Below are positions 25,749 to 48,405 of a stretch of DNA of 64,000 bases, one piece after another. The stretch is from Alphaproteobacteria bacterium (GTDB lineage Bacteria > Pseudomonadota > Alphaproteobacteria > CAAHEQ01 > UBA3637), in NCBI GenBank assembly GCA_017467335.1, contig JAFTSJ010000037.1, positions 1,078-65,077 of the forward strand. Reading direction: 5' to 3'. How positions within the stretch are numbered: position 1 is the stretch's first letter; the number at the start of each line of letters is the position of its first letter. The notes under the pieces are model-generated. The model had not been told where the DNA came from. It saw only the letters and a program-made list of their open reading frames with translations, and searched no databases. A program made the position numbers and the translations under genes.

Positions 25749-27569
25749 TTAGTTGTTTTTGTTTGATGTTTCAACACGTATGGTTAATAATTCAATACCC
25801 GGATAGCGTTGCTTTGTCGGGGGATTTGTATCAATATTAAAATCCAGTTGAATTGTCCCGCTTTCAATTAAATCCGCTGATATAGGAAATGTTTGTGTAT
25901 CAATTGTTAATTCGTTATATCGTTTTTGAAAGACTAACCGGTTATGACTACGAACAGTTAAGGTGCGATGTGATTGTGGCGGTACCGGAATGACATATTG
26001 TATCGTTATATTGACAGATTGATTGTGTATTTTTTCGGGTTGTAATTTCAGTTGTCCAAAATCTTGTTCAACCCACACATGATTTAAAAATTCTTCCCGT
26101 ATCTTATTACCGGCAACAAATTTATTCATAGCTTCAAGAAATGGAATCGTTTGATTTAAAGGTGTTTTTTGTAGTTGAGAAGGATTATCAAAATAAGATG
26201 AAAAATTTTCGTTTCCCCATTCTTTATATTTTTGAGATATACAATCTAATTCATATTCTAAATTATAACCGATTTTTTCAAGAAGTGTTTTTTCCGATCG
26301 AAATAATGACCGACCTAAACCATATTGTCCGTTAAAGTCAAAACCGACAGCATCTAATATCGTTGGTGCTATATCAAGATTTGTATATTGATGTGGATAT
26401 GCTGTCATTTTTCTTGCCGGATTGATAATGGAAAAATAAATTTCACGATTAGGTATCTTTTCAATATAAGAATCAATATTTGTTGCCGTAACAAGATGAT
26501 CTCCCATAATGACAATGGTTGTATTATCGTAAAACGGTTGTTCTTGTATCCATTTTACAAATTCACCTGCTTCTTTGTCTGAACAGATAACAGCATCTCG
26601 ATAATCATTAAATGTTCGTTGACAGGTTTTGTTAATATTGCCAACCGGTTGATGTGTATCGGCTTGCACGGTTACTATCATAAATGGTTTGTTTGATTGG
26701 GCTAATCGATTGATTTCATCTTTAGCCGCTTTGTATAATTGTCTATCGTTTAATCCCCAAGTTGAAATAGGCGGTTCATCGTATTGTTGTAATTCACGAT
26801 AACCGATAGCTTTTTTAAAACCGTGTTGTAAAGCAAATTTATCTGTTCCGGTAAATTGGATACGGGCTGATTTCATTAAAACTGTTTCATATCCTTGTTC
26901 TTTTAATGTTTCTACCCAACAAGGAAGTCCGGGAATAAAAGAATGATAGGTCGATAAATCAACAAACATATTATTCAACTTTAAAGGAGCACCGCAAAAA
27001 GAAGACATTAAACTGGTAATGGTCCATCCGCATTGACGCAGTTGCTTAAAACCTGAAAAAGAAATGTTTTCTTGTTGTATTTGTGTTAGTTTGGGAGAAA
27101 GATTTTGTTCTAAAATTTGACTGTTTTGAAAAGATTTTTCATATGATTCCAGAACAATAATAATCAGATTTCTGCCATTTGTTTTTACTTGAGGAATAAT
27201 ATGGTACGTTTCATATATATTTCCGATGACAAAACGACTTCTGATAAAATCAAATAAATGCCATTTTGTAATAGGATAAGATAAACATAATAAACCAATC
27301 AATACACAAACAAGCATGGGGTAGGGAACTTTTTTTTGTATCAATCGATATAACAAATAAGCTACAATCAAGCTGACACAGAAAATTAAAATAACACCAC
27401 TGACAATTAAAGAAACAGCAACCCCATTAAGCGGTTGGGCTAAATTAAGCATAATCTGTTCCCACTGAATATTCCCGAAATTTTGATTAACCCAAATGGT
27501 GGCAATAAAACCGGCTGTTCCTAAATATAAAACAGTAAAGACAAAAAAGATAATTATTTTTTTTAACAT
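25749..27569 (-). CDS. sulfatase-family membrane protein (LtaS / phosphoglycerol-transferase-like: N-terminal polytopic TM + extracytoplasmic sulfatase domain)
   Basis: Four to five N-terminal hydrophobic helices are followed by the alkaline-phosphatase/sulfatase core (LIIIVLES..., HQPVGN, IVIMGDH); 606 aa. Confidence 0.7.
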   Translation of the reverse strand: MLKKIIIFFVFTVLYLGTAGFIATIWVNQNFGNIQWEQIMLNLAQPLNGVAVSLIVSGVILIFCVSLIVAYLLYRLIQKKVPYPMLVCVLIGLLCLSYPITKWHLFDFIRSRFVIGNIYETYHIIPQVKTNGRNLIIIVLESYEKSFQNSQILEQNLSPKLTQIQQENISFSGFKQLRQCGWTITSLMSSFCGAPLKLNNMFVDLSTYHSFIPGLPCWVETLKEQGYETVLMKSARIQFTGTDKFALQHGFKKAIGYRELQQYDEPPISTWGLNDRQLYKAAKDEINRLAQSNKPFMIVTVQADTHQPVGNINKTCQRTFNDYRDAVICSDKEAGEFVKWIQEQPFYDNTTIVIMGDHLVTATNIDSYIEKIPNREIYFSIINPARKMTAYPHQYTNLDIAPTILDAVGFDFNGQYGLGRSLFRSEKTLLEKIGYNLEYELDCISQKYKEWGNENFSSYFDNPSQLQKTPLNQTIPFLEAMNKFVAGNKIREEFLNHVWVEQDFGQLKLQPEKIHNQSVNITIQYVIPVPPQSHRTLTVRSHNRLVFQKRYNELTIDTQTFPISADLIESGTIQLDFNIDTNPPTKQRYPGIELLTIRVETSNKNN

Positions 27570-27573
27570 TGTA

Positions 27574-28512
27574 TTATTCTTTGAACGATGATTCTTGTAT
27601 AATGTAATTCGGACGTTTTTTTGTTTCTAAATAAATCAATCCTAAATATTCTCCTAATATACCCATAATCATCAATTGAACACCACCAATTATTAAAACA
27701 GATACCAGAACGGATGTCCAGCCGGTTACCACAAAGTGATTGGTAAAAATTTTCATATAGACAACATAACAGGCATACAAAAAGCCCAGCAAGGTAGTTA
27801 AAAATCCGACAACACTTGCAATACGCAAAGGCATAATACTAAATGATGTTATTCCCATCCAAGCCAATCGTATCATTTTTGATAACGTGTAACTGCTTTT
27901 TCCGGCATGACGTTTGGCAACCTGATAGGGAATACCGATTTGTTTAAATCCCATCCAAGTAATATATCCTCGTAAAAATAAATCTCTTTCCGGAGATTTA
28001 TTCAATATTTGAACAACTTTTTTATCCAATAGACGAAAATCAGCAGCCCCTTTGGGCACTGAAACAGAAGTCATAAAATTAAGAAGTTTATAATATAAAT
28101 TAGATGTTTTTCGTTTTAAAAAACCTTGATTTTTATTTTCTTGACGAAGCGTATATACAATATCGTAGCCATCTTGCCATTTTTGAATAAGTTGCGGAAT
28201 GACTTCAGGCGGATGTTGTAAGTCTGCATCAATGGAAATAACAGCATCACCCGTTGCTTTTGCTAAACCGGCCCGCAAAGCATATTGATGTCCAAAATTG
28301 CGGGAAAAGGATAAGTAGTGGATACAATCATTTTGTTTTCTTAAATTTTTTAATATATTTAATGTATCATCTGTTGAACCGTCATCCACAAAAATAATCT
28401 CATAAGATTTTGATGGTATATTTTTTTTTAATTTTTCCAATAAAACAGGGATATTTTCTGCTTCATTGTAGGCGGGAACGATAACGGATATTTTTGTGTT
28501 TAATGCTGTCAT
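27574..28512 (-). CDS. family-2 glycosyltransferase, polyprenyl-phosphate sugar transferase type (GtrB/ArnC-like) with C-terminal TM helices
   Basis: ISVIVPAYNEAENIPVLLEKL...IIFVDDGSTDDT...DADLQHPPE is the GT2 DXD architecture. I place the start at ATG 28512, preceded by AAGAGG; the listed 28647 start lacks an SD. Confidence 0.8.
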   Translation of the reverse strand: MTALNTKISVIVPAYNEAENIPVLLEKLKKNIPSKSYEIIFVDDGSTDDTLNILKNLRKQNDCIHYLSFSRNFGHQYALRAGLAKATGDAVISIDADLQHPPEVIPQLIQKWQDGYDIVYTLRQENKNQGFLKRKTSNLYYKLLNFMTSVSVPKGAADFRLLDKKVVQILNKSPERDLFLRGYITWMGFKQIGIPYQVAKRHAGKSSYTLSKMIRLAWMGITSFSIMPLRIASVVGFLTTLLGFLYACYVVYMKIFTNHFVVTGWTSVLVSVLIIGGVQLMIMGILGEYLGLIYLETKKRPNYIIQESSFKE

Positions 28513-28667
28513 GACAAACCTCTTGGACTTTATTATTAACTTGAATTGTATGTATTTGCAAGTTTTTTTGTTAACAGGTCGTGAAAAAGATAACATTGTT
28601 TTGTCATAAAAAAACATTGCAATCAATTTATTATCTGATGATTGCAATGTTATTTTGAATAAGTGAT

Positions 28668-29087
28668 TTATTTTTGAATTGTTTGTCGAATAGATGTTGT
28701 GGAACGAACGGGTAAATCACCTTTTGGCTTTCTTTGACTGATTTTATATTCAATTCCTTTGCTTTCAACAAATTGTCGTTTGATATCGCTGTCTCCGTCT
28801 GAATTAACGAAAAAAATATCCGGTTTGACTTGGTCTAAAAGAGAGGCAAAGTCTAAAATACCATCATCCGGACCAATGAAAACCTGTTTGACAAATTTAA
28901 TAGATTCCAACATGTATTTTCGTTCATTTTCTGTATATAAAGTTGAACGATTTTTCAGTTTTTGTACAGTTGCATCCGAACCGATTGATACATATACATC
29001 TCCTAATTCGGCTGCTTCTTCTAAAAAACGGATATGTCCGCTATGTAAAACATCAAAACAGCCTGATACAAATACTTTTTTTGTCAT
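28668..29087 (-). CDS. cytidylyltransferase (glycerol-3-phosphate cytidylyltransferase TagD-like)
   Basis: KKVFVSGCFDVLHSGHIRFLEEAAELGD is the HxGH nucleotidyltransferase motif; the ~139 aa size is typical of TagD/TarD. Confidence 0.7.
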   Translation of the reverse strand: MTKKVFVSGCFDVLHSGHIRFLEEAAELGDVYVSIGSDATVQKLKNRSTLYTENERKYMLESIKFVKQVFIGPDDGILDFASLLDQVKPDIFFVNSDGDSDIKRQFVESKGIEYKISQRKPKGDLPVRSTTSIRQTIQK

Positions 29088-29102
29088 ATATAATACTCCT
29101 TT

Positions 29103-30254
29103 TTACTTTACACCATTGTCAATCAAACGTTGACGATATTCAGGTTTCCAATCAACCGGTTCATCTTTTCCGAAAGTACGACAATACGGTTCAATCGGAT
29201 ATAAATGAGGATTGGTATCTAATGCCGCTTGTCTTTTTTCCGAATCGGCGAATAAATAAAGGGCATAACCCCCATGACCGCCACCGCAATATTTATGACC
29301 CAGCGAATCTTTGATATCGGGTAAAGGCAACATGCCTTCGTCTAATTGAAGTTTATAACTCATTTGGACAGCTTCCGAAACAATAAAAATATCTTTTGCT
29401 ATGACGCCGATACGGGCAACTCGACCGGCTTGGGCAATTTGTTCAAAATTACGTTGCACGTTTGCTAAACTGGGCGTGTTGTGTTCAATGCAAGTATCTA
29501 AAACAGCCATACGACCACGCAAAAAATCACCGGTATTTTTACAATCTAATACCGGATAATCTCCGGACGACCATACGCAAGCTCCCGTTTCCGCAATAAC
29601 GGCAGGATCTTGCCAACCGACACCTAATCCCAATTCTGACTTAACGGGATCCCATCCGTTTAAAACACTCCAACCACCGCTACCGCCTAAACCGGCTCCT
29701 TTACGGTAAAGCCATTCATTCATGGAAACTGTTGGGGAAATAGCACAGTTAACAATATAAGCACCGTCAATTTTATTTTCAGGAACATCCAGCCAACCGC
29801 CGGCAAAATCAACACGTAACGGAACATAATTCGGGGCTTTTATTTTTTGAATAATTTGTGTGCAGGATAATTGATTAGAGTAAGGAGGTGTTTTTTCCAA
29901 CATAATATATTCAATTCCCATTTGGGCACAGAGTGCTTTTTTTTCGGCACTGTATTGGTCATCGGTTGTAACGGCTAAAATGTCCGGTTTATAAATGTCT
30001 ATTTCATTTTCAAATTCAAGCCCTTTACGGTTACCACGGCAAAATACAACTTTATCAACAATATCCAACGCAGAAAGAACAGCCATTTTATCCTGATCCG
30101 TCATGGCAGATTTCATACGATAAAGCTTCCACAATGTTTCCGAATCCGGAATGGCAACAATCAATTTGTTGCCCAGTTGTCGAGCATCTTTAAAAAATTG
30201 AATATGACCGGCATGCAAAATATTAAAAGCCCCCGAAATAAATACAGTTTTCAT
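29103..30254 (-). CDS. bifunctional protein: N-terminal TagD-like cytidylyltransferase + C-terminal ~250-aa domain with a Gly-rich GHMP-kinase-like loop
   Basis: N-terminus KTVFISGAFNILHAGHIQFF (HxGH). The C-terminal half contains KGAGLGGSGGWSVL, resembling the GHMP kinase phosphate-binding loop. Confidence 0.6.
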   Translation of the reverse strand: MKTVFISGAFNILHAGHIQFFKDARQLGNKLIVAIPDSETLWKLYRMKSAMTDQDKMAVLSALDIVDKVVFCRGNRKGLEFENEIDIYKPDILAVTTDDQYSAEKKALCAQMGIEYIMLEKTPPYSNQLSCTQIIQKIKAPNYVPLRVDFAGGWLDVPENKIDGAYIVNCAISPTVSMNEWLYRKGAGLGGSGGWSVLNGWDPVKSELGLGVGWQDPAVIAETGACVWSSGDYPVLDCKNTGDFLRGRMAVLDTCIEHNTPSLANVQRNFEQIAQAGRVARIGVIAKDIFIVSEAVQMSYKLQLDEGMLPLPDIKDSLGHKYCGGGHGGYALYLFADSEKRQAALDTNPHLYPIEPYCRTFGKDEPVDWKPEYRQRLIDNGVK

Positions 30255-30381
30255 ATATTCCTCTCTTTAAGTAAAAAACAACTATTTTGCACTATAATAC
30301 AAAGTGTGTTTATTTTCAACATGAAAAGTATTCTTTACTCAAAAATGATACATGTTGGATATAGATAAAAGACAGTTATTG

Positions 30382-30747
30382 TTAAAATAAGTCAAATAAA
30401 ACGCAAAACCATATAATTAAGGCATTTATAATGGATAAAAAAACTAAAAAACTGCCAATATCTTTCGCTTTTTTGGATAAAGGATGTTGTTTTTGAGAAA
30501 TTCTGTCAATAACAGTTTCAATAGCGGTGTTGGCTAATTCCATCATCAAGATAAGCATTAAAGAAGCAATTAAAATGCCTTTTGTAAGTATATTTATTGG
30601 TAATAAGAATGATAAAATTGTTCCCCCAATGAATAAAATTAAATCCAAACGAAACGATTCTTGTGTGCTAACGGCTATTTTAAAACCGTTATATGAATGT
30701 ATAAAAGAAAATAATAACCGTTTGATACCTGTCTGCGGTGTATTCAT
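30382..30747 (-). CDS. dgkA: diacylglycerol kinase
   Basis: 121 aa with three TM helices and the DgkA motif MMELANTAIETVIDRIS...AKDIGS. Confidence 0.8.
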   Translation of the reverse strand: MNTPQTGIKRLLFSFIHSYNGFKIAVSTQESFRLDLILFIGGTILSFLLPINILTKGILIASLMLILMMELANTAIETVIDRISQKQHPLSKKAKDIGSFLVFLSIINALIIWFCVLFDLF

Positions 30748-30798
30748 GCTACCTCCGTAAACAAAAAAAAGTCGCAGATACGCGACTTTTTATAAAAC

Positions 30799-30874
30799 TG
30801 GTAGCGGAAGAGGGGATCGAACCCCCGACACATGGATTATGATTCCACCGCTCTACCATCTGAGCTATTCCGCC
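30799..30874 (-). tRNA. tRNA-Met (anticodon CAU; could instead be tRNA-Ile2 if lysidinylated)
   Basis: 76 nt on the minus strand. Acceptor stem GGCGGAA/TTCCGCT; D arm GCTC-AGATGGTA-GAGC; anticodon stem GTGGA/TCCAT with loop ATCATAA; T arm GGGGG-TTCGATC-CCCTC; discriminator A; CCA encoded. Confidence 0.85.
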
Positions 30875-30990
30875 ATTCGATATGGGAACTATATACACCC
30901 AAAAAAAATGCTTGTCAACAAAAAAGTTGCATTTTTCAAAAAAATATTTTACAGTACATTTATTGGATAAACGAATTGAAAGGGAAAAGA

Positions 30991-31701
30991 ATGTCTGAAG
31001 TATTTTTTAACGGGGTTGCCGGTCGTCTGGAAGGACGTTTTCACAAATCAGAAAATCCACGTGCTCCACAAATATTGATATTACATCCTCAACCGTTACA
31101 AGGCGGGACGATGAATAATCGTGTGACATATGCGATGTTTCAGGCTTTTGTTAATATGGGCTTTTCCGTTTTAAGATTTAACTATCGTGGCGTTGGTAAT
31201 TCACAAGGGGAACTTGATGGTTCGGGTGTGGGTGAATTAGCTGATGCCATTATTGCGTTGGATTGGTTGCAAAATTTAGATTCGGAAGCAAATTGTTGTT
31301 GGATTGCCGGTTATTCTTTTGGGGCATGGGTGGCTGCACAATTATTGATGAGACGTCCGGAAATTAAAGGATTTGTTTTTGTTTCTCCGCCGACTGATAT
31401 GTATCCGTTTGATTTTTTAACACCTTGTCCTGCTTCGGGATTGATTATACAAGGGGGGGCTGATACAATTGTATCCGAATCATCAGTTGCCATGTTAGCA
31501 GAACAATTATCCGGACACAAATATCTGCGTGTTGAATACAAAGTCTTGCCAGAGGCTGATCATATTTATTCGCGTCATTTAAAAGATGTTCAGGATTTGA
31601 TTACCCAGATTGTTCCGGAGTTAAAAGGTCGCCCGAGAAAGGTTGTTAAAAAAGTTAAAAAAGCAACTGTTTCAACGGTTATATCCAATGAAGACTATTG
31701 A
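30991..31701 (+). CDS. alpha/beta-hydrolase fold protein
   Basis: GYSFGAW nucleophile elbow (G-x-S-x-G) with downstream Asp/His (EADHIY). I place the start at ATG 30991 after AAGGGAAAAG; the listed 30832 start overlaps the tRNA. Confidence 0.7.
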   Translation: MSEVFFNGVAGRLEGRFHKSENPRAPQILILHPQPLQGGTMNNRVTYAMFQAFVNMGFSVLRFNYRGVGNSQGELDGSGVGELADAIIALDWLQNLDSEANCCWIAGYSFGAWVAAQLLMRRPEIKGFVFVSPPTDMYPFDFLTPCPASGLIIQGGADTIVSESSVAMLAEQLSGHKYLRVEYKVLPEADHIYSRHLKDVQDLITQIVPELKGRPRKVVKKVKKATVSTVISNEDY

Positions 31702-35063: not shown

Positions 35064-35861
35064 ATGAAAAAGAAATATTTTTATAGCATTGTTTTTATAT
35101 TTTTCGGCATGTTATTGTTTGACATACCTGTTTTGTCGTATGAATCTAAATTAAGTAAAGAAGATTTAGCTGAAATACAAAAAATAAAGAATCATAATAA
35201 GCAACAGTTAGAACAGCAAATGACACTGGAACGGTATCAAAAAGAACATCCGAATTCTATGACCCCGCAACCGGAAGAATATTGGGATTTGGCTTGGCAT
35301 GCTCGTTTGGCGGATTATGGTGATGAAGAAAGTCAATTTGTTATTGCTCGTGCTTATGATAAGGGGCAACAAGTTGATCAAAATCCGAAAAAAGCCATTG
35401 CTTTTTATGAAAAAGCAGCTGATCAAGGACATATTGATGCTTGTATGCGTTTAGGGGAAATATATTCTGAAAATAAGTGGGTTAAAAAAGACGAAGAAAA
35501 ATCGTTATATTGGTATGCCAAAGCCGCAAAAAACGGTTATGTTCAGGCTCAATTGAAAGTGTCTGAAATCTGTAAAGAAAAGGGAGATTATGTATTGGCT
35601 GTTTTGTATTTGGAAACCGGATTAAAACAATTATTTCCTCAGGCTGATAAATTAGAAACATATGCTCCTGATTTGGTTGAATTAAAACGGTTGGCTCAAA
35701 TGCAGAAAAAAATGAATGACAGAGGTGTTTATCGATTCGTGTTGCATGAAAGCGGTCTTTCAAGTTTTCAATCCAGACAATTGCAACAAAAGAATATCAA
35801 TCGTTCACCAATGCAACCGTTTAAGCCTCAAAAACGTGTTTTAAAAGAGGTTCATCAATGA
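35064..35861 (+). CDS. Sel1-repeat (TPR-like) protein with N-terminal signal peptide
   Basis: Signal-like N-terminus MKKKYFYSIVFIFFGMLLF, then Sel1 units (AYDKGQQVDQNPKKAIAFYEKAADQGHIDACMRLGEIY; YWYAKAAKNGYVQAQLKV). Confidence 0.75.
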   Translation: MKKKYFYSIVFIFFGMLLFDIPVLSYESKLSKEDLAEIQKIKNHNKQQLEQQMTLERYQKEHPNSMTPQPEEYWDLAWHARLADYGDEESQFVIARAYDKGQQVDQNPKKAIAFYEKAADQGHIDACMRLGEIYSENKWVKKDEEKSLYWYAKAAKNGYVQAQLKVSEICKEKGDYVLAVLYLETGLKQLFPQADKLETYAPDLVELKRLAQMQKKMNDRGVYRFVLHESGLSSFQSRQLQQKNINRSPMQPFKPQKRVLKEVHQ

Positions 35862-41656: not shown

Positions 41657-42595
41657 ATGAAGATGAGTGAAGATAAAAAAACGGGTGAATTTTTATATTT
41701 TGAAGAAAAAGACAATGCAATTTATTCAAAAGAAACCGGTCAAAAAGTGGTTGATATCAATGATGAAACGCATATTTATGAATATCAGGATAACGGTTTG
41801 CTGAAAGTCAGCACGGCAGATACGTGTGTATTATACGATTATCGGGGAAATTTACTGCCACATTTTGAAAACGGAGGTAAATTTATTCATTTTGGCCGAT
41901 TTAATAGTTCATTTTATACTGTGAAAACATCTGAAGGAGAACAATCATATCTTATACCATGTATCAGACGAGGCTCTTTTGTAATTGAGAGTGATGAGAA
42001 AGCAGGTCAATTTGTTGTTTCAACGGTAAAAGGTAAGGAAATAGGAAGCGGTGTTGATTTTAATTTTTATCAACCAAATCCTTTATGTTTATATATTGGT
42101 ATTAAAAATAAAGATGATATGTGGACTGTTTATGATGAAAAAGGTATTCCTGAACCGAAAATGACAAATGTTCGTTGGGTGGGATGCCATAGTTCCACAG
42201 ATTCTTTTGACATTCGTAAAAATTTGTATTCTGATTATGAAACTGTATTAACAAGACGACAAAATCGCAATCGTCTGGCTACTTACTCAATATGTGCCGC
42301 TTTGTTTTGTTTAGGTGCTTTATGGGTAAGTCGGTCGTGTCAGAAAGAAGAACAGCAATTGAATGAATTTGCACAACAAGACGCGACATATTTAGGTGCA
42401 TCAGATGGTGTTTTGTTGTTTGATACGGATGGTGATAAGGAAACGGCTGAATTAGGTGCTGATTTACACCGAAAATCTCGGACTAAAATTATGGGTAAAA
42501 TGTACAAGAAGGAAGGTCAATGTCGCAAAATTACTCATTGGTGCGATATAACCGGATTGTCCATTCGTTCTTTTGATAAAGTAAATGAAAATTAA
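41657..42595 (+). CDS. paralog 1 of a four-member bitopic membrane-protein family (312 aa): cytoplasmic beta-rich repeat domain, single TM, ~80-aa Cys-containing C-terminal ectodomain
   Basis: No signal peptide; positive residues (RRQNRNR) precede the hydrophobic helix LATYSICAALFCLGALWV. The conserved C-terminal block is QQDATYLGASDGVLLFDTDGD...EGQCRKITHWCDITGLS. N-domain motifs (YDYRGNLLPHFENG; WTVYDEKGIPEPKMTNV) loosely resemble WG-type repeats. Confidence 0.75.
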   Translation: MKMSEDKKTGEFLYFEEKDNAIYSKETGQKVVDINDETHIYEYQDNGLLKVSTADTCVLYDYRGNLLPHFENGGKFIHFGRFNSSFYTVKTSEGEQSYLIPCIRRGSFVIESDEKAGQFVVSTVKGKEIGSGVDFNFYQPNPLCLYIGIKNKDDMWTVYDEKGIPEPKMTNVRWVGCHSSTDSFDIRKNLYSDYETVLTRRQNRNRLATYSICAALFCLGALWVSRSCQKEEQQLNEFAQQDATYLGASDGVLLFDTDGDKETAELGADLHRKSRTKIMGKMYKKEGQCRKITHWCDITGLSIRSFDKVNEN

Positions 42596-42611
42596 ATATC
42601 AGTGAAAAGGT

Positions 42612-43547
42612 TTGGTAATGCCCAAGAAACAACATAATGACAAGATGTTAAATTTTCAGGAAGTTAATGGTGCTATTTATTCAAAAGCAACGGGCAACAA
42701 GATTATTGACATGGCTGAAGTCAAATTTATTTGTGAAAACAGGTGGTTGGGTGTCTTGGTTGTTAGTAAGCCTGATGCGAATATCTTATATGATTATCGG
42801 GGAAATTTATTGCCTCATTTTGAAAACGGAGAAACTTTTAAATATTTTTGCGGGCGTGATAATCGGTATTATACTGTTAAAAAGGGTGAAATGGAAGAAA
42901 CATATCATATTCCATGTATTAAACAAGGTTGTTTGATTGTTGAGTATGATGAAAATAAAAAACAATATACACTATCGACAATTAAAGGAAAACAAATTGC
43001 TGTTGGAAAGGATATAACACCATATAAAATAAATGAACGGTTGTATTTATGTGTTAAAAATAATGACGGACGTGTAACAGTTTATGATGAAAAAGGTGTT
43101 CCAGAACCACAAATGACAAACGTTGATGAAGTTCGTTCGTGTGGTTGGGATTTTTTAGAAATTCGTTCAAGCAAACAGAATTCTGATTATACGCAGGTTT
43201 TAACAAGACGGCAGATGAGGAACAAAAAATTGACACGAACACTTTTAACAACTTTGGGGGCAATAGCCGTTGTTTTGGGCGGCAAGTGTTGTCAATCGTA
43301 CATACAGGAGTTGGATGAGATAAAACAACAAGATGCAACATATTTAGGTGTGTCAGATGGTGTTTTATTGTTCGATACGGATGGTGATACGGATACAGCG
43401 GAAATGTGTGTTGCTTTGGCTGATACAAATAAATCGGAAATTATCAGAAGTATGTATAAGCAGGAAGGAAAATGTCGAAAAGTTGCTCAATGGTGTGAAA
43501 GAACAGGATTATCAGTCTGTGTTTTTGATCGTGTGAATGAAAATTAA
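42612..43547 (+). CDS. paralog 2 (311 aa)
   Basis: Collinear with paralog 1: YDYRGNLLPHFENG, IPCIKQG, VTVYDEKGVPEPQMTNV, TM TLLTTLGAIAVVLGG, and C-terminal QQDATYLGVSDGVLLFDTDGD...EGKCRKVAQWCERTGLS. Confidence 0.75.
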   Translation: MVMPKKQHNDKMLNFQEVNGAIYSKATGNKIIDMAEVKFICENRWLGVLVVSKPDANILYDYRGNLLPHFENGETFKYFCGRDNRYYTVKKGEMEETYHIPCIKQGCLIVEYDENKKQYTLSTIKGKQIAVGKDITPYKINERLYLCVKNNDGRVTVYDEKGVPEPQMTNVDEVRSCGWDFLEIRSSKQNSDYTQVLTRRQMRNKKLTRTLLTTLGAIAVVLGGKCCQSYIQELDEIKQQDATYLGVSDGVLLFDTDGDTDTAEMCVALADTNKSEIIRSMYKQEGKCRKVAQWCERTGLSVCVFDRVNEN

Positions 43548-43567
43548 ATATTGAAAAGGATTTATAA

Positions 43568-44503
43568 ATGACAATAATACCTAATGAAGATGAATTTTTT
43601 TATTTTAAACAGATTGGTGATGTAATTGTTTCAAAAGCAACAGGGAGAATTATCACAAAATTAGATGAAAATACATTTGTTGAAGAAAATGCAGAAAACG
43701 GCTTATTAGTCGTTAAAAATACAGACAAAAGTGTTGTGTGCGATTATCGGGGTGAGTTATTGTCCCATTTTGAAAATGGTGCTTCATTTAAGGAATTTAG
43801 TCGTGAACGGGTTGAAACACGCCATTATATTGTAAAGACAGAAGAAGGCGAGAAAAGATGTCATATTCCATGTATCAGACGAGATGATTTTGTTATTGAA
43901 TATGATGAAAAATCACAACAATATGCATTTTCAACAACAAATGGAAAGCAATTTGCCATTGGTAAAGATTTTGAATTACATAAAATAGATGAAGGTTTAT
44001 TTATTGCTATTCAGGATGAAAAAGAACGATGGACAGTTTATAATGCAAAAGGCATTGTTGAACCTCAATTAAAAGACGTTGTCTGTGTACGTGTTTATGA
44101 AGAAAATAAGTTCCATGTTCGACGAACACCTGATTCTTGTATGGAACCTGCTTTGACAAAACAACAAACACGTCGCAGAAATGTGAAACGGGGAACTCTG
44201 ATAGGGTTGCTTTCGTTGGCAGTCGTTGTGGGTGGCAAGGGTTGTCAGGCATATATGGATGAATTGCGTGCAATTCGTCAGCAAGAAGCAACATACTTAG
44301 GTGTATCCGATAGTGTTTTATTATTTGATACGGACGGTAATCACGCAACGATTGAATTAGGTGTGTCTTTGACAGATAAACAAGATAAAGTTCGTGTTTT
44401 GGGAAGCCTGTTTCAGCAGGAAGGACAATGTCGCAAAGTGGCTCAATGGTGTGATATGACAGGATTGGCGACATCTTATTTTGAAAAGGTAAATTCGAAC
44501 TAA
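43568..44503 (+). CDS. paralog 3 (311 aa)
   Basis: Collinear with paralogs 1 and 2: CDYRGELLSHFENG, IPCIRRD, WTVYNAKGIVEPQLKDV, TM LIGLLSLAVVVGG, and C-terminal QQEATYLGVSDSVLLFDTDGN...EGQCRKVAQWCDMTGLA. Confidence 0.75.
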   Translation: MTIIPNEDEFFYFKQIGDVIVSKATGRIITKLDENTFVEENAENGLLVVKNTDKSVVCDYRGELLSHFENGASFKEFSRERVETRHYIVKTEEGEKRCHIPCIRRDDFVIEYDEKSQQYAFSTTNGKQFAIGKDFELHKIDEGLFIAIQDEKERWTVYNAKGIVEPQLKDVVCVRVYEENKFHVRRTPDSCMEPALTKQQTRRRNVKRGTLIGLLSLAVVVGGKGCQAYMDELRAIRQQEATYLGVSDSVLLFDTDGNHATIELGVSLTDKQDKVRVLGSLFQQEGQCRKVAQWCDMTGLATSYFEKVNSN

Positions 44504-46587: not shown

Positions 46588-48401
46588 ATGACATCAGAAA
46601 ATCAAACAGAAAATTTATTTACGATTGGTTCTTCTCGTTATGTGGAAGTTGAATCAGCGGTTGCATTGAACGAAAAACAAATGGAAACGTTACGCAAACG
46701 TTTGGAAAAAGTGTTAAAAACAGAACGATTTGTTTTACAAGTCAAAGTGAATCCGGCATTGTTAGGTGGTTTGTCATTGAAAGTTGATTCGTTTTTAGTT
46801 GATGCTTCCGTGAAAGGTCAATTACAAGCGTTTGAAAAAGAAATTGCTCAAAAAGTTTCATCGGCAGTTGATGTAACAAAAATTGCTGATATTTTTTCTG
46901 ATAGTGTTAAATCTTTTCAAGAAAAAACAATTGTGTCTGAGGTCGGGGTTGTTTTATCTGTTTCAGACGGTGTTGCTAAGGTTGAAGGGTTAAAATCAAT
47001 TGCTTCCGGTGAACGGGTTGTTTTTGAATCCGGTGCTCAAGGGATGGCTTTAAACTTAAATCCGGATGGCGTAGATGTTGTTATTTTTAATGGTGCCGTT
47101 AATATTCGTGAACATGAAAAGGTCTCTCGTACGGGAATGATGAACACTGTTCCGGTCGGTAAAGAATTGTTGGGTCGTGTTGTTAATCCTTTGGGTGAGC
47201 CGTTAGATGGAAAAGACGGTTTTGATGATTTACCACGGAATCCGGTTAATGCTCCTGCTCCGGGGATTATTGCTCGGTCACCGGTTAATGTTCCCATTCA
47301 AACGGGGATTAAAGGAATTGATGCCCTTGTTCCGATTGGTCGGGGACAACGTGAATTGATTATCGGAGATAGACAAACCGGTAAAACAGCCATTATTTTA
47401 GATACAATTTTAAGTCAAAAAGAGATAAATGCCCGTGTATCTGATAAAGATAAATTATTTTGTGTTTATGTTGCCATCGGACAGAAACAATCAACCGTTC
47501 GGGATATTATGCGTGTGTTAGAAGAACGAGGAGCAATGGATTATACGGTTATTGTGTCCGCTACGGCTTCTGATAGTGCTGCTATGCAATATTTGGCTCC
47601 ATATGCCGGTTGTACTATCGGTGAATATTTCCGTGATAATGGTATGAATGCCATTGTTTTCTATGATGATTTGTCAAAGCATGCTGTAGCATACCGTGAA
47701 ATGTCATTGTTGTTGAAACGTCCGGCCGGTCGTGAAGCATATCCGGGTGACGTTTTCTACTTACACTCTAAATTGTTAGAACGAGCTGCCCAGTTAAGTG
47801 CCGAAAATGGGGGTGGGTCCTTGACGGCTTTACCGGTTATTGAAACGCAAGAAGGGGATGTGTCTGCCTATATTCCGACTAATGTTATTTCTATTACGGA
47901 CGGACAGATTTTCTTAGAAACAACTTTGTTCCATCAGGGCGTTCGTCCGGCTATCAACGTTGGGTTATCGGTTAGTCGTGTCGGGTCTGCTGCTCAAAGT
48001 AAAGCCATGAAAAAAGTTGCCGGTTCATTGAAATTGGATTTGGCTCAATATCGTGAAGTTATGTCATTTTCGCAATTTGCTTCTGATTTGGATCCGGCAA
48101 CACAGGCATTGTTAAATCGAGGGGCCCGTTTAACAGAAATTATGAAGCAAAAGCAATATCGTCCATATTCAATGGCACAAGAAGTTGTTTCGATTTGTGC
48201 CGGTGTTAGTGGTTTACTTGATGAAATAGCTATTGATAAAGTGTCTGTTTTTGAACAAAAACTGCAAGATAAAGTTGCTGCGGATTATCCGGAAATACTT
48301 GAAAGTATTACTACAACTCGTGAATTAAAAGATGATATAAAAGAAAAATTGCACTCAGTCGTCCGATTGGTTGTACAAGAAATGACGGGAAATACAGATA
48401 A

Positions 48402-48405
<4 letters not shown>
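46588..48405 (+). CDS. atpA: F1 ATP synthase alpha subunit with an N-terminal in-frame fusion to the C-terminal half of subunit delta (OSCP)
   Basis: The first ~90 aa ([26 protein letters not shown]...[29 protein letters not shown]) match only the C-terminal domain of AtpH. The frame then runs without a stop into the canonical alpha subunit ([22 protein letters not shown]..., P-loop GDRQTGKT); 605 aa total. Confidence 0.8.

What the first reader, a model, noticed from the sequence alone, without database searches (positions are those of the whole stretch)
25749..30874. Teichoic-acid-like glycerol-phosphate gene set in a Gram-negative background, adjacent to tRNA-Met
Five consecutive same-strand genes encode an LtaS/MdoB-type polytopic sulfatase-family transferase, a polyprenyl-phosphate GT2, a TagD-like glycerol-3-phosphate cytidylyltransferase, a second TagD-like domain fused to a GHMP-kinase-like domain, and DgkA. 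DgkA recycles diacylglycerol released by phosphoglycerol transfer from phosphatidylglycerol. CDP-glycerol synthesis plus an LtaS-like enzyme is the Gram-positive teichoic acid logic (established). In a proteobacterium it suggests glycerol-phosphate decoration of LPS/OPG or a capsule-like polymer. The block ends at a tRNA-Met, a common site for island insertion, but I see no integrase or flanking direct repeat.
Basis: partly seen in the sequence, partly recalled or inferred. Interest (0 to 1): 0.55.

Follow-up and report, generated by a model that had tools for sequence, protein, structure and literature searches.

The report
Composite envelope-glycan decoration locus, not teichoic-like
The five genes are real, but they look like two separately inherited modules rather than a teichoic-acid-like glycerol-phosphate pathway: an uncharacterised sugar-kinase/nucleotidyltransferase pair shared with Akkermansia, and a lipid-carrier glycosyltransferase paired with an OpgB-like phosphotransferase, probably decorating a cell-envelope glycan.

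Summary
Five minus-strand genes (25749-30747) encode an OpgB/LtaS-family transferase, a polyprenyl-phosphate GT2, a small HIGH-type nucleotidyltransferase (NT), an NT fused to a GHMP-like domain, and DgkA, followed by tRNA-Met.

The CDP-glycerol/teichoic reading is not supported. Both NTs score far below the TagD cut-off, score higher against HldE domain II, and lack the TagD RTEGISTT motif. The fused C-terminal domain is a shortened GHMP kinase. Its invariant residues coincide with the catalytic and sugar-binding residues of fucokinase Fkp, which points to an anomeric sugar-1-kinase making an NDP-sugar.

The locus is composite. The fusion plus small NT are 65-83% identical to Akkermansia-type proteins. 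The fusion family is uncharacterised and lies in polysaccharide loci of mostly PVC bacteria, usually next to a WecG/TagA glycosyltransferase. GT2 plus sulfatase-family is a separate pair conserved in most of the sampled alphaproteobacterial relatives. DgkA is adjacent only in the closest relatives.

No att repeat, integrase or compositional signal supports a tRNA island.

Best model: activated sugar, then Und-P-sugar, then a glycan side chain that receives a phospholipid-derived phospho-substituent. The sugar, acceptor and ORF1 donor are unknown.

The parts
25749..27569 (-). ORF1, 606 aa: OpgB(MdoB)/LtaS-family alkaline-phosphatase-superfamily transferase. It has three N-terminal TM segments, a periplasmic catalytic domain (~130-430) and a lineage-specific C-terminal ~175 aa.
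   Evidence: PF00884 3.5e-22; NF003000 OpgB 1e-49 (169 bits, cut-off 574); LtaS 3.6e-11. PDB hits: 3lxq, LtaP 4uop, LtaS 4uoo/2w5q. E141, H306, D357 and H358 are invariant and T183 nearly invariant in 22 homologues. TM segments at 5-23, 50-68 and 83-101.
27574..28512 (-). ORF2, 312 aa from M46 (the ORF extends to a TTG at 28647): GT2 polyprenyl-phosphate glycosyltransferase of the GtrB/ArnC/PgfS type, with two C-terminal TM helices. It ends 4 nt before the ORF1 start.
   Evidence: PF00535 1.8e-39; PgfS 1.2e-81 (274 bits, cut-off 500); ArnC 1.7e-59. TM segments at 224-242 and 268-286. Orthologues of 311-316 aa sit directly upstream of, or overlap, the sulfatase gene in L089, L090, L091 and L092.
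28668..29087 (-). ORF3, 139 aa: stand-alone HIGH-type (HSGH) nucleotidyltransferase with C-terminal motif LPVRSTT. Specificity is unresolved.
   Evidence: PF01467 1.9e-16; rfaE_dom_II 66.3 bits and TagD 47.6 bits, both far below cut-off. PDB: ECT, 3glv, TagD, Fom1 CyTase and HldC all within 55-38 bits. It is 67-83% identical to the gene downstream of the fusion in the closest group of relatives, which includes the Akkermansia-named loci, and 74% identical to the NT next to GT2 and sulfatase in L089.
29835..30254 (-). ORF4 N-terminal domain (aa 1-140): HIGH-type (HAGH) nucleotidyltransferase with motif YSNQLSCT.
   Evidence: PF01467 6.9e-10. PDB sequence hits 3glv 6.9e-11 and HldC 1.2e-8. Foldseek hits 3glv, HldC 5xf2, Fom1 5x3d and TagD 2b7l. 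34% identical to ORF3.
29103..29834 (-). ORF4 C-terminal domain (aa 141-383): shortened GHMP-kinase domain ('mini-GHMP') with motifs RVDFAGGWLD (147), GLGGSGG (188), GWQD (213) and CGGGHGGY (323). Predicted to be an anomeric sugar-1-kinase.
   Evidence: No Pfam or NCBIfam hit for the single sequence. Family profile against PDB: every hit is a GHMP kinase, with Fkp best at 1.4e-5 and three colinear motifs. AF2 model pLDDT 91.6. Foldseek: Fkp 9iip 9.2e-10, WcbL, 3k85, HddA, mevalonate kinases. R147, W154, D156, Q215, D216 and G188/G190/G191/S192 are invariant in 121 sequences and align with Fkp R592, W599, D601, Q761, D762 and its Gly-rich loop (PMC11982464).
30382..30747 (-). dgkA, 121 aa, three TM segments: prokaryotic diacylglycerol-kinase family. 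It is separated from ORF4 by a 127-bp gap.
   Evidence: PF01219 1.4e-29. TM segments. Adjacent to the cluster only in L001 and L092, not in L089-L091, L093 or the Akkermansia-type loci.
30291..30319 (-). Best promoter-like site in the region (TTGAAA-17-TATAGT), in the dgkA-ORF4 gap. It suggests ORF4 and the genes after it are transcribed separately from dgkA.
   Evidence: 10/12 match. This is a consensus match only; the number of such sites does not exceed the shuffled expectation.
28545..28574 (-). Promoter-like site (TTAACA-18-TACAAT) in the 155-bp gap between ORF3 and the probable ORF2 start. This is consistent with two transcriptional modules.
   Evidence: Consensus match only.
30766..30791 (-). 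Terminator-like hairpin with a T-run directly after tRNA-Met.
   Evidence: sequence read.
30799..30874 (-). tRNA-Met (CAT). Its 3' end faces the cluster.
   Evidence: ARAGORN. There is no second copy of its 3' 25-mer or 15-mer anywhere in the window.

Best explanation
The locus combines two modules that decorate an envelope glycan.

Module B (ORF4 and ORF3, both cytoplasmic). The mini-GHMP domain of ORF4 phosphorylates the anomeric hydroxyl of a free sugar. The HIGH-type NT domain of ORF4, probably working with the paralogous ORF3, converts the sugar-1-phosphate and an NTP into an NDP-sugar. This is an Fkp-like or HldE-like activation route built from a different combination of domains.

Module A (ORF2 and ORF1). 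The GT2 transfers a sugar from a nucleotide donor, plausibly the product of module B, onto undecaprenyl phosphate. After flipping, a transferase not encoded here attaches the sugar to a periplasmic or outer-membrane glycan (LPS/LOS, periplasmic glucan or capsule). The OpgB/LtaS-family ORF1 then adds a phospho-substituent, most likely sn-glycerol-1-phosphate from phosphatidylglycerol. The diacylglycerol released can be re-phosphorylated by DgkA.

Shown here: domain identities, the fold, conservation of catalytic residues, modularity, and phylogenetic distribution. Inferred: the substrate class (a sugar), the link between module B and ORF2, the donor and acceptor of ORF1, and the role of DgkA. 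Module B was probably acquired horizontally from an Akkermansia-like verrucomicrobium.
For: Kinase half. The profile hits only GHMP kinases, with Fkp first. A confident model matches Fkp, WcbL and HddA. The Fkp general base D762, R592, and sugar-contact residues W599, D601 and Q761 (PMC11982464) align with invariant D216, R147, W154, D156 and Q215.

NT halves. Both keep an intact HxGH motif. They rank closest to HldE domain II in NCBIfam, and ORF4-N is closest to 3glv and HldC in PDB sequence and fold searches.

Context of the fusion family. In 80 metagenome loci it lies in polysaccharide clusters. A WecG/TagA GT26 gene (PF03808, 4e-55) is directly downstream in 42 loci, together with Ugd, UXS-type epimerases, DegT, Glf, acyltransferases and CysDNC. 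In the closest group of relatives a GT25-like gene follows. So the product is consumed by glycosyltransferases.

Two NT domains plus one kinase also occur on a single polypeptide (P0123).

GT2 and sulfatase-family genes are adjacent or overlapping in L089, L090, L091 and L092. ORF1 retains the LtaS/OpgB catalytic residues. ORF2 has the GtrB/ArnC topology.

Precedent: in S. mutans, SccN (a Glc-P-Und synthase) and SccH (glycerol phosphate taken from phosphatidylglycerol) act on the same side chain (PMC11754754). In E. coli, OPG phosphoglycerol derives from membrane phospholipids (PMC3818809).

HGT: the fusion is 65% and ORF3 about 75% identical to Akkermansia-type proteins, while other PVC homologues are about 50%.
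Against: No substrate has been identified for any of the enzymes. Both NTs and ORF1 and ORF2 fall well below every equivalog cut-off.

The cluster and the 64-kb window contain no GT-C transferase or flippase among the larger ORFs scanned with Pfam, so the Und-P-sugar route is incomplete as encoded here.

Module B is never found with module A outside this genus-level clade, so their functional link rests only on adjacency. The 155-bp gap with a promoter-like site between ORF3 and ORF2 is compatible with independent expression.

L089 has the small NT next to GT2 and sulfatase without an adjacent fusion. The small NT may therefore act on a metabolite that needs no dedicated kinase, which leaves room for a phospho-alcohol such as glycerol-3-P.

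HIGH-type NTs acting on sugar-1-phosphates are so far known only for heptose. The mini-GHMP domain lacks about 100 residues present in Fkp between motif I and GWQD, so its pocket may differ.
Confidence: 0.5

Rival explanations
1. ORF3 and ORF4-N are glycerol-3-phosphate cytidylyltransferases that make CDP-glycerol, with the kinase supplying glycerol phosphate. The cluster builds or attaches a teichoic-acid-like glycerol-phosphate polymer or decoration.
For: TagD is among the sequence and fold neighbours of both NTs. Some database records name family members 'glycerol-3-phosphate cytidylyltransferase'. L089 has the small NT beside GT2 and sulfatase with no adjacent kinase, as expected for a substrate taken from central metabolism. 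ORF1 is homologous to phosphoglycerol transferases.
Against: TIGR01518 scores are 47.6 and 42.0 against a cut-off of 165.4, and are lower than the scores for rfaE domain II. The TagD RTEGISTT motif is absent: ORF3 has LPVRSTT and ORF4 has YSNQLSCT. The kinase conserves the sugar-contact residues of fucokinase (PMC11982464). No TagB/TagF-type CDP-glycerol transferase lies in the cluster, and none stands out by eye among the 25 most frequent neighbour families of the fusion, of which only eight were confirmed with Pfam. The usual partners are GT26 and GT25 glycosyltransferases. LtaS/OpgB enzymes use phosphatidylglycerol, not CDP-glycerol (established knowledge; PMC11754754, PMC3818809), so the two halves do not form one teichoic pathway.
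Confidence: 0.1
2. The two modules are functionally unrelated neighbours. ORF1, with or without ORF2, modifies periplasmic glucans or LPS with a phospholipid-derived headgroup, as OpgB or CgmB do. ORF4 and ORF3 supply an NDP-sugar to a glycosyltransferase encoded elsewhere. Their adjacency, and that of dgkA, results from local gene turnover.
For: Module B is associated with GT26 or GT25 genes elsewhere and never with ORF1 or ORF2 outside this clade. ORF1 relatives occur without any NT (L090, L091, L093). Intergenic gaps with promoter-like sites separate dgkA, module B and module A. DgkA adjacency is not conserved.
Against: The five-gene order is kept in three sampled members of the clade: the window, L001 and L092. 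Their ORF1 identity is as low as 74%. An ORF3-type NT also sits directly upstream of GT2 and sulfatase in L089, at 54% ORF1 identity. This suggests repeated or persistent linkage of an NT with module A.
Confidence: 0.2
3. ORF4 and ORF3 form an alternative NDP-heptose pathway: a heptose-7-P kinase of the HddA/WcbL type plus HldC-like heptose-1-P nucleotidyltransferases. It would be analogous to HldE and possibly make CDP- or UDP-heptose.
For: rfaE domain II is the best NCBIfam hit for both NTs. Burkholderia HldC is a top sequence and fold neighbour of the ORF4 N-domain. The heptokinases WcbL, HddA and 3k85 are among the best matches of the kinase domain. ORF3 has an Arg directly before STT, as in Burkholderia HldC (FEHDRSTT), a feature linked to CTP/UTP use in heptose NTs (commentary on Tang et al. 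2024, PMC11461863).
Against: GmhA- and GmhB-like genes lie near the fusion in only 1 of 94 loci (L025, using E. coli query sequences recalled from memory). Akkermansia already has a functional canonical HldE, Amuc_0415 (PMC9427033). The full (F/L)xxGxSTT motif is not present. Scores are far below the rfaE cut-off. W154, which aligns with the sugar-stacking W599 of Fkp, makes motif I (AGGWxD) match Fkp in particular.
Confidence: 0.08

Closest known systems
Fkp, the bifunctional L-fucokinase/GDP-fucose pyrophosphorylase of Bacteroides fragilis
   Same: One polypeptide combines a GHMP anomeric sugar kinase with a nucleotidyltransferase to turn a free sugar into an NDP-sugar for surface glycans. 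The kinase is the best sequence-profile and fold match of ORF4's C-domain, and the catalytic and sugar-contact residues are conserved (PMC11982464).
   Different: The domain order is reversed: NT first here, kinase last. By established knowledge, Fkp's NT half is a pyrophosphorylase of a different fold, whereas this one is a small HIGH/Rossmann cytidylyltransferase-like domain (PF01467). The kinase is about 220-240 aa against about 360 aa, with roughly 100 residues missing between motif I and GWQD. A second stand-alone NT is encoded next to it.
HldE / HldC (ADP-heptose synthesis)
   Same: A bifunctional kinase plus HIGH-type nucleotidyltransferase acting on a sugar phosphate. The NT domains here rank closest to rfaE domain II in NCBIfam, and ORF4-N is close to HldC in PDB searches.
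   Different: By established knowledge the HldE kinase is ribokinase-like (PfkB), not GHMP, and is N-terminal. Scores are far below the family cut-off. There is no GmhA/GmhB context. Akkermansia has a separate true HldE (PMC9427033).
TagD (CTP:glycerol-3-phosphate cytidylyltransferase)
   Same: Same fold and HxGH motif, and similar size to ORF3.
   Different: 47.6 and 42.0 bits against a cut-off of 165.4. RTEGISTT is replaced. No CDP-glycerol-consuming transferase is nearby. One NT is fused to a sugar-kinase-like domain.
OpgB (MdoB) phosphoglycerol transferase I of E. coli, and LtaS/GacH/SccH of Gram-positives
   Same: N-terminal TM anchor plus a periplasmic sulfatase-fold domain, with the Glu/Thr/His/Asp-His catalytic set conserved. 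OpgB is the best NCBIfam hit.
   Different: 169 bits against a cut-off of 574. The match covers only OpgB residues 53-463 of 763. The C-terminal ~175 aa are unrelated. The gene is translationally coupled to a polyprenyl-phosphate GT2, which is not a feature of opgB. Donor and acceptor are unknown.
Streptococcal side-chain module: SccN/GacI (Und-P-sugar GT2), SccM/GacL (GT-C), SccH/GacH (GroP transferase)
   Same: A GtrB-type GT2 and an LtaS-family transferase are encoded together and act successively on one glycan side chain (PMC11754754; bioRxiv 10.1101/337519). ORF2's best equivalog hit is the streptococcal PgfS.
   Different: No GT-C transferase or flippase lies in the cluster or the window. 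The host is Gram-negative. Extra NDP-sugar synthesis genes are present.

Membership tests
TagD / glycerol-3-phosphate cytidylyltransferase (TIGR01518) | Score at or above the curated equivalog cut-off (165.4 bits) | tested here: not met
   ORF3 47.6 bits and ORF4 42.0 bits. Both are lower than their rfaE_dom_II scores.
TagD / glycerol-3-phosphate cytidylyltransferase (TIGR01518) | HxGH and RTEGISTT signature motifs of the GCT/CCT/ECT cytidylyltransferases | tested here: not met
   HxGH is present (HSGH, HAGH). The second motif is LPVRSTT in ORF3 and YSNQLSCT in ORF4. Most fusions have F-x-P-V-STT. The motif definition comes from established knowledge of the family.
TagD / glycerol-3-phosphate cytidylyltransferase (TIGR01518) | A CDP-glycerol-consuming partner (TagB/TagF-type glycerophosphotransferase) in the pathway | tested here: not met
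   No such domain occurs among the cluster proteins. The recurrent neighbours confirmed with Pfam are GT26, GT25, an acyltransferase, an epimerase and similar genes. The rest of the genome could not be examined.
Teichoic acid pathways (WTA TagO/A/B/D/F/GH; LTA LtaS with glycolipid anchor) | A coherent gene set in which the activated donor matches the polymerase | tested here: not met
   Only an NT of uncertain specificity and an OpgB-like enzyme are present. No TagO-, TagA-, TagB-, TagF- or TagGH-type domain was found in the Pfam scans of the cluster, its immediate neighbours or the larger window ORFs.
HldE domain II / HldC heptose-1-phosphate nucleotidyltransferase (TIGR02199) | Score at or above the cut-off (181.5 bits), and the (F/L)xxGxSTT motif | tested here: not met
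   66.3 and 57.8 bits. The motif is only partly kept (motif taken from PMC11461863).
HldE domain II / HldC heptose-1-phosphate nucleotidyltransferase (TIGR02199) | Pathway context with GmhA isomerase and GmhB phosphatase | tested here: not met
   GmhA- and GmhB-like ORFs are present in 1 of 94 loci (L025) and absent from the window. The query sequences were recalled from memory, so this is a BLAST-level test only.
GHMP kinase superfamily (fucokinase/heptokinase branch) | Motifs I, II (Gly/Ser-rich phosphate loop) and III in colinear order | tested here: met
   RVDFAGGWLD (147), GLGGSGG (188), GWQD (213), CGGGHGGY (323). The profile against PDB hits only GHMP kinases, with Fkp at 1.4e-5 and three colinear segments.
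GHMP kinase superfamily (fucokinase/heptokinase branch) | GHMP fold | tested here: met
   The model has pLDDT 91.6. Foldseek E-values are 9.2e-10 to Fkp 9iip and 7.6e-9 to WcbL, and it also hits HddA, 3k85 and mevalonate kinases. TM-scores normalised to the target are only about 0.45-0.5, because the domain is shortened and the query includes the NT domain.
GHMP kinase superfamily (fucokinase/heptokinase branch) | Catalytic base Asp, stabilising Arg and sugar-contact residues | tested here: met
   D216, R147, W154, D156 and Q215 are invariant in 121 sequences. They align with Fkp D762, R592, W599, D601 and Q761 (roles from PMC11982464).
GHMP kinase superfamily (fucokinase/heptokinase branch) | Pfam GHMP_kinases_N or GHMP_kinases_C at gathering threshold | tested here: not met
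   No Pfam hit for the window domain even at E<=10. One distant homologue (P0135) gives PF08544 at E=0.0013, below the cut-off.
GHMP kinase superfamily (fucokinase/heptokinase branch) | Kinase activity and substrate | not testable with these tools
   This needs an enzyme assay.
OpgB/LtaS phosphoglycerol-transferase family (alkaline phosphatase superfamily) | N-terminal TM anchor plus an extracytoplasmic Sulfatase (PF00884) domain | tested here: met
   PF00884 at 79.5 bits against a cut-off of 25. Three TM segments lie within residues 5-101.
OpgB/LtaS phosphoglycerol-transferase family (alkaline phosphatase superfamily) | Metal-binding Glu and Asp-His, nucleophilic Thr, substrate His | tested here: met
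   E141, H306, D357 and H358 are invariant and T183 is conserved in at least 90% of sequences. Alignments to LtaS and LtaP place them at the corresponding positions. Residue roles come from established knowledge of LtaS structures.
OpgB/LtaS phosphoglycerol-transferase family (alkaline phosphatase superfamily) | Equivalog-level identity to OpgB (cut-off 574) or LtaS (cut-off 970); phosphatidylglycerol as donor | tested here: not met
   169 and 42 bits. The donor lipid cannot be tested here.
GtrB/ArnC/DPM1-type polyprenyl-phosphate glycosyltransferase (GT2) | N-terminal GT-A GT2 domain plus two C-terminal TM helices, about 310 aa | tested here: met
   PF00535 at 135.8 bits. TM segments at 224-242 and 268-286 of the 312-aa form. 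PgfS and ArnC are the top hits but below their equivalog cut-offs.
Prokaryotic DgkA | PF01219 above threshold, about 120 aa, three TM segments | tested here: met
   102.3 bits against a cut-off of 22.3. Three TM segments. Whether the substrate is diacylglycerol or undecaprenol is not testable here.
tRNA-associated genomic island | Integrase, a direct repeat of the tRNA 3' end, deviant composition | tested here: not met
   No integrase-like ORF in the region. No second copy of the tRNA 3' 25-mer or 15-mer. No flanking direct repeat. GC3 of the five genes is 0.21-0.31, within the window's range.

The most novel reading that the evidence does not exclude
ORF1 does not take its phospho-group from a phospholipid. 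Instead it uses the undecaprenyl-phosphate-sugar made by its translationally coupled partner ORF2 as donor. It would attack the phosphodiester, as LtaS attacks phosphatidylglycerol, and transfer sugar-1-phosphate to an envelope glycan while releasing undecaprenol. The neighbouring DgkA-family enzyme, whose Gram-positive homologues are undecaprenol kinases, would then recycle the undecaprenol. The sugar itself would be a so-far-undescribed NDP-sugar made by the NT/mini-GHMP pair. This would explain why no GT-C transferase is encoded with the GT2, and it would be a new reaction type for the LtaS/OpgB family.
Probability: 0.06. Interest if true: 0.75.

Novelty: new variant of a known kind. Interest (0 to 1): 0.42.

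Why it matters
The teichoic-acid framing would have implied a Gram-positive polymer in a proteobacterium. The evidence does not support that.

What remains is more modest but real. ORF4 belongs to a sizeable and, as far as I could find, uncharacterised enzyme family: more than 2,700 protein clusters at 90% identity and at least 577 metagenome loci. The family joins a cytidylyltransferase-fold NT to a shortened fucokinase-like GHMP kinase. It is conserved in Akkermansia, a medically important gut symbiont, and occurs in named Verrucomicrobiota, Planctomycetota and some Bacteroidales. It sits inside surface-polysaccharide loci.

Identifying its sugar would define a new nucleotide-sugar route and possibly a surface epitope of Akkermansia.

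The window also shows this module moving between phyla in the gut and docking next to a lineage-specific GT2/OpgB-like pair. That makes it a small case study of how envelope-decoration pathways are assembled from parts.

Tried and rejected
1. Single-sequence Pfam and NCBIfam scans of ORF4's C-domain at E<=10 gave nothing except a 9.5-bit fucokinase fragment. A family profile was needed.

2. The first AlphaFold run, on 29 close homologues, gave pLDDT 30-40 over residues 127-215 and was discarded. A 121-sequence alignment fixed this.

Species-level taxonomy of the wider family therefore rests on names.

5. tRNA-island tests (att repeat, direct repeats, GC3) were all negative.

6. The heptose hypothesis was considered and down-weighted. 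There is no GmhA/GmhB context and Akkermansia has a separate HldE.

7. A search for informative domain fusions among atypically long homologues found only a tandem-NT variant and one weak GHMP_C hit, with no clue to the substrate.

8. Literature searches for the Akkermansia 'cytidyltransferase' or for an NT-GHMP bifunctional enzyme found no characterisation.

9. NT specificity could not be resolved from sequence. PDB neighbours (ECT, 3glv, TagD, Fom1, HldC) are nearly equidistant from ORF3.

Full report
OBSERVATION. ORF1 (25749-27569, 606 aa) carries a Sulfatase domain (PF00884, 3.5e-22), and its best curated match is OpgB/MdoB (NF003000, 1e-49); LtaS is much weaker at 3.6e-11. ORF2 is a GT2 (PF00535, 1.8e-39) whose best matches are the polyprenyl-phosphate glycosyltransferases PgfS and ArnC. 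ORF3 (139 aa) and the first 140 residues of ORF4 (383 aa) are cytidylyltransferase-like (PF01467). ORF5 is DgkA (PF01219, 1.4e-29). tRNA-Met(CAT) lies at 30799-30874. Hydropathy shows three N-terminal TM segments in ORF1, two C-terminal TM segments in ORF2, three in DgkA, and none in ORF3 or ORF4. ORF2 probably starts at M46 (28512; 312 aa), because its orthologues are 311-316 aa. That leaves a 155-bp gap after ORF3.

THE TWO NUCLEOTIDYLTRANSFERASES ARE NOT DEMONSTRABLY TagD. Against the TagD equivalog model (cut-off 165.4 bits), ORF3 and ORF4 score 47.6 and 42.0. Both score higher against HldE domain II (66.3 and 57.8; cut-off 181.5). In the PDB, ORF3 is nearly equidistant from ethanolamine-phosphate cytidylyltransferase, 3glv, TagD, the Fom1 CyTase domain and HldC. 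ORF4-N is closest to 3glv and Burkholderia HldC. Both keep the HxGH motif. However, the second signature motif, RTEGISTT in TagD (established knowledge) and (F/L)xxGxSTT in heptose NTs (PMC11461863), is LPVRSTT in ORF3 and YSNQLSCT in ORF4. Specificity therefore cannot be assigned from sequence. ORF3 and ORF4-N are paralogues at 34% identity.

THE C-TERMINAL HALF OF ORF4 IS A SHORTENED, FUCOKINASE-LIKE GHMP KINASE. The single sequence has no Pfam or NCBIfam match. An exhaustive phmmer search of 1.84 billion cluster representatives found only 238 relatives at E<=1e-3. They occur either fused behind an NT (~360-385 aa) or alone (~215-245 aa). A profile built from the window's domain and 20 stand-alone members (A2) hit only GHMP kinases in the PDB. 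Fkp fucokinase was first (1.4e-5), matching three colinear motifs (PxRxDxAGGWxD, GGWQD, KxxGAGxGGY). The heptokinases WcbL and HddA, 3k85 and mevalonate kinases followed. A shallow alignment gave a poor AlphaFold model. A 121-sequence alignment (A3) gave mean pLDDT 91.6. Foldseek then matched the N-domain to 3glv, HldC, Fom1 and TagD, and the C-domain to Fkp (9.2e-10), WcbL, 3k85, HddA and mevalonate kinases. According to the 2025 Fkp structure paper, D762 is the general base acting on the anomeric OH, R592 stabilises the transition state, W599 stacks on the sugar, D601 and Q761 bind its hydroxyls, and loop 712-720 binds ATP (PMC11982464). In the alignment these residues correspond to ORF4 D216, R147, W154, D156, Q215 and G188-S192, all invariant across the 121 sequences. 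The domain is about 100 residues shorter than Fkp between motif I and GWQD. This is good evidence for an anomeric sugar kinase, and hence for an NDP-sugar product rather than CDP-glycerol. The sugar itself is unknown.

THE LOCUS CONSISTS OF TWO MODULES WITH DIFFERENT HISTORIES. The fusion's nearest relatives are a 93% copy in an 'Alphaproteobacteria bacterium' MAG (L001) and a 71% copy. Next comes a very large group at 61-66% identity that includes Akkermansia proteins named only 'cytidyltransferase'. In loci recovered with Akkermansia-named proteins, and in related ones, the fusion is followed directly by a 139-aa NT that is 67-83% identical to ORF3. That pair is flanked by small membrane proteins, a GT2 unrelated to ORF2, and a GT25-like gene. 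No sulfatase-family gene or dgkA is present. A metagenome scan with the A2 profile gave at least 577 confirmed loci, of which 80 were kept. In these, ORF1-, ORF2- and DgkA-like genes never accompany the fusion, and more distant fusions lack an adjacent second NT. The commonest neighbour is a WecG/TagA-family GT26 (PF03808, 4e-55), directly downstream in 42 loci. The other recurrent neighbours were recognised by eye from representative sequences: Ugd, UXS-type epimerases, DegT, Glf, WxcM-like genes, Acyl_transf_3 and CysD/N/C. Pfam confirmed the epimerase, WxcM-like, acyltransferase, GT25, cupin and small-membrane-protein families. The named members of the family are Verrucomicrobiota, Planctomycetota and some Bacteroidales, always with generic names. 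One homologue (P0123) carries a degenerate NT, an intact NT and the kinase on one chain. This mirrors ORF3 plus ORF4 and suggests the two NT domains act together.

ORF1, by contrast, has about 20 close full-length relatives (39-99% identity). Similarity then drops to 34% in another alphaproteobacterial MAG and to about 30% in Firmicutes 'phosphoglycerol transferases'. In relatives at 47-54% identity, a 311-316-aa GT2 lies immediately upstream or overlaps it. L089 also has an ORF3-like NT (74% identical) but no fusion. L090 has extra glycosyltransferases and no NT. L091 has GT2 only. L093 (40-41% identity) has the sulfatase gene alone, next to the rpsP operon. L094 (34%) pairs it with a CDP-alcohol phosphatidyltransferase. 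DgkA is adjacent only in L001 and L092, the closest relatives. ORF1 retains the catalytic set of the LtaS/OpgB family: E141, T183, H306 and D357-H358.

NO EVIDENCE FOR A tRNA ISLAND. The 3' 25-mer and 15-mer of tRNA-Met occur only once in the window. No flanking direct repeats exist and no integrase is present. GC3 of the five genes (0.21-0.31) is within the range of housekeeping neighbours. The tRNA is followed by a terminator-like hairpin, and the best promoter-like site lies in the 127-bp dgkA-ORF4 gap. These are consensus matches only. Gene content around the sulfatase gene changes piecemeal among relatives, which fits local turnover plus horizontal acquisition of module B from an Akkermansia-like donor. 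That acquisition is inferred from 65-83% identity across phyla, compared with about 50% to other PVC homologues. No rooted tree was made.

MECHANISM. The best-supported model, at confidence about 0.5, runs as follows. ORF4's kinase makes a sugar-1-phosphate. ORF4-N and ORF3 make the NDP-sugar. ORF2 loads a sugar onto undecaprenyl phosphate. A transferase not encoded here attaches it to an envelope glycan. ORF1 adds a phospholipid-derived phospho-substituent, and DgkA recycles the diacylglycerol. The closest worked-out precedent for a GtrB-type GT2 acting with an LtaS-family enzyme is the streptococcal SccN/SccM/SccH (GacI/L/H) side-chain module (PMC11754754; bioRxiv 10.1101/337519). E. coli OpgB is the Gram-negative precedent for phospholipid-derived phosphoglycerol on periplasmic glucans (PMC3818809). 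There are three weak points. No GT-C transferase or flippase was found in the cluster or among the larger ORFs of the 64-kb window. The link between the modules rests on adjacency alone. All substrates are unknown. The rivals are CDP-glycerol/teichoic-like (0.10), unrelated neighbouring modules (0.20) and an alternative NDP-heptose route (0.08). The heptose route is weakened by the lack of GmhA/GmhB context and by Akkermansia's separate HldE (PMC9427033). The remaining probability, about 0.06, goes to the novel reading in which ORF1 uses Und-P-sugar as a sugar-phosphate donor.

NOVELTY AND VERDICT. The finding is real, but its headline interpretation is not supported. It is a new variant of known kinds: an Fkp/HldE-like bifunctional sugar-activating enzyme with an undescribed domain combination, joined to a GT2/OpgB-like pair. 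I found no publication characterising the NT/mini-GHMP family. Interest is moderate. The family is widespread, present in Akkermansia and testable, but nothing here contradicts established principles.

Noticed in passing
window 2336-8977 (+) and 35064-35861 (+): A 2,213-aa protein with ankyrin repeats at both ends, and a Sel1-repeat protein. L092 also has a small ankyrin gene next to the rpsP operon. Eukaryote-like repeat proteins suggest a host-associated, possibly intracellular, lifestyle for this low-GC (35.5%) alphaproteobacterium.
   Followed up: no
window 30832-31701 (+): The 289-aa alpha/beta-hydrolase ORF overlaps tRNA-Met on the opposite strand. The orthologue in L092 is 236 aa, so the real start is probably the ATG at 30991. 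The overlap is an ORF-calling artefact.
   Followed up: partly
window 41657-44503 (+): Three consecutive ORFs of almost identical length (312, 311 and 311 aa). The first has no Pfam hit. This may be a tandem paralogue array of unknown function. Paralogy was not checked.
   Followed up: no
window 46588-48405 (+): The ORF encoding the ATP synthase alpha subunit also carries the C-terminal part of the OSCP/delta domain at residues 19-85. This is either an ORF extension running through the atpH end or a delta-alpha fusion.
   Followed up: no
P0123 (500 aa): A single chain with a degenerate NT (HxGH replaced), an intact NT and the mini-GHMP kinase. This is a natural fusion of the three domains that are split between ORF3 and ORF4 in the window.
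   Followed up: partly
L025 11692-12961 (-): This is the only locus of 94 in which GmhA- and GmhB-like genes lie within about 2 kb of the fusion. It may be worth checking whether this subgroup acts on heptose.
   Followed up: no
L002-L006, L009-L021 (loci of the closest relatives, including Akkermansia-named ones), upstream of the fusion: A conserved trio of small membrane proteins, one matching Phage_holin_3_6 (PF07332, 3.7e-11), precedes the fusion. They might be a flippase or membrane anchor for the pathway. A 124-aa mannose-6-P-isomerase-type cupin follows the small NT in six loci.
   Followed up: partly
environmental fusion loci such as L035, L072 and L083: CysD-, CysN- and CysC-like (PAPS synthesis) genes, recognised by eye from their sequences, recur 2-3 kb downstream of the fusion in 12-15 loci. 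This hints that the associated polysaccharide is sulfated.
   Followed up: no
L094 7001-9517: A 34%-identical ORF1 relative is immediately followed by a CDP-alcohol phosphatidyltransferase (PF01066). This links the sulfatase-family enzyme to phospholipid headgroup synthesis in another alphaproteobacterial MAG.
   Followed up: no
L089 9835-11718 (-): Directly after the sulfatase-family gene lies a 627-aa protein combining DUF4422 (a glycosyltransferase-like family) with UDP-galactopyranose mutase. This suggests a galactofuranose-containing glycan in that relative.
   Followed up: no
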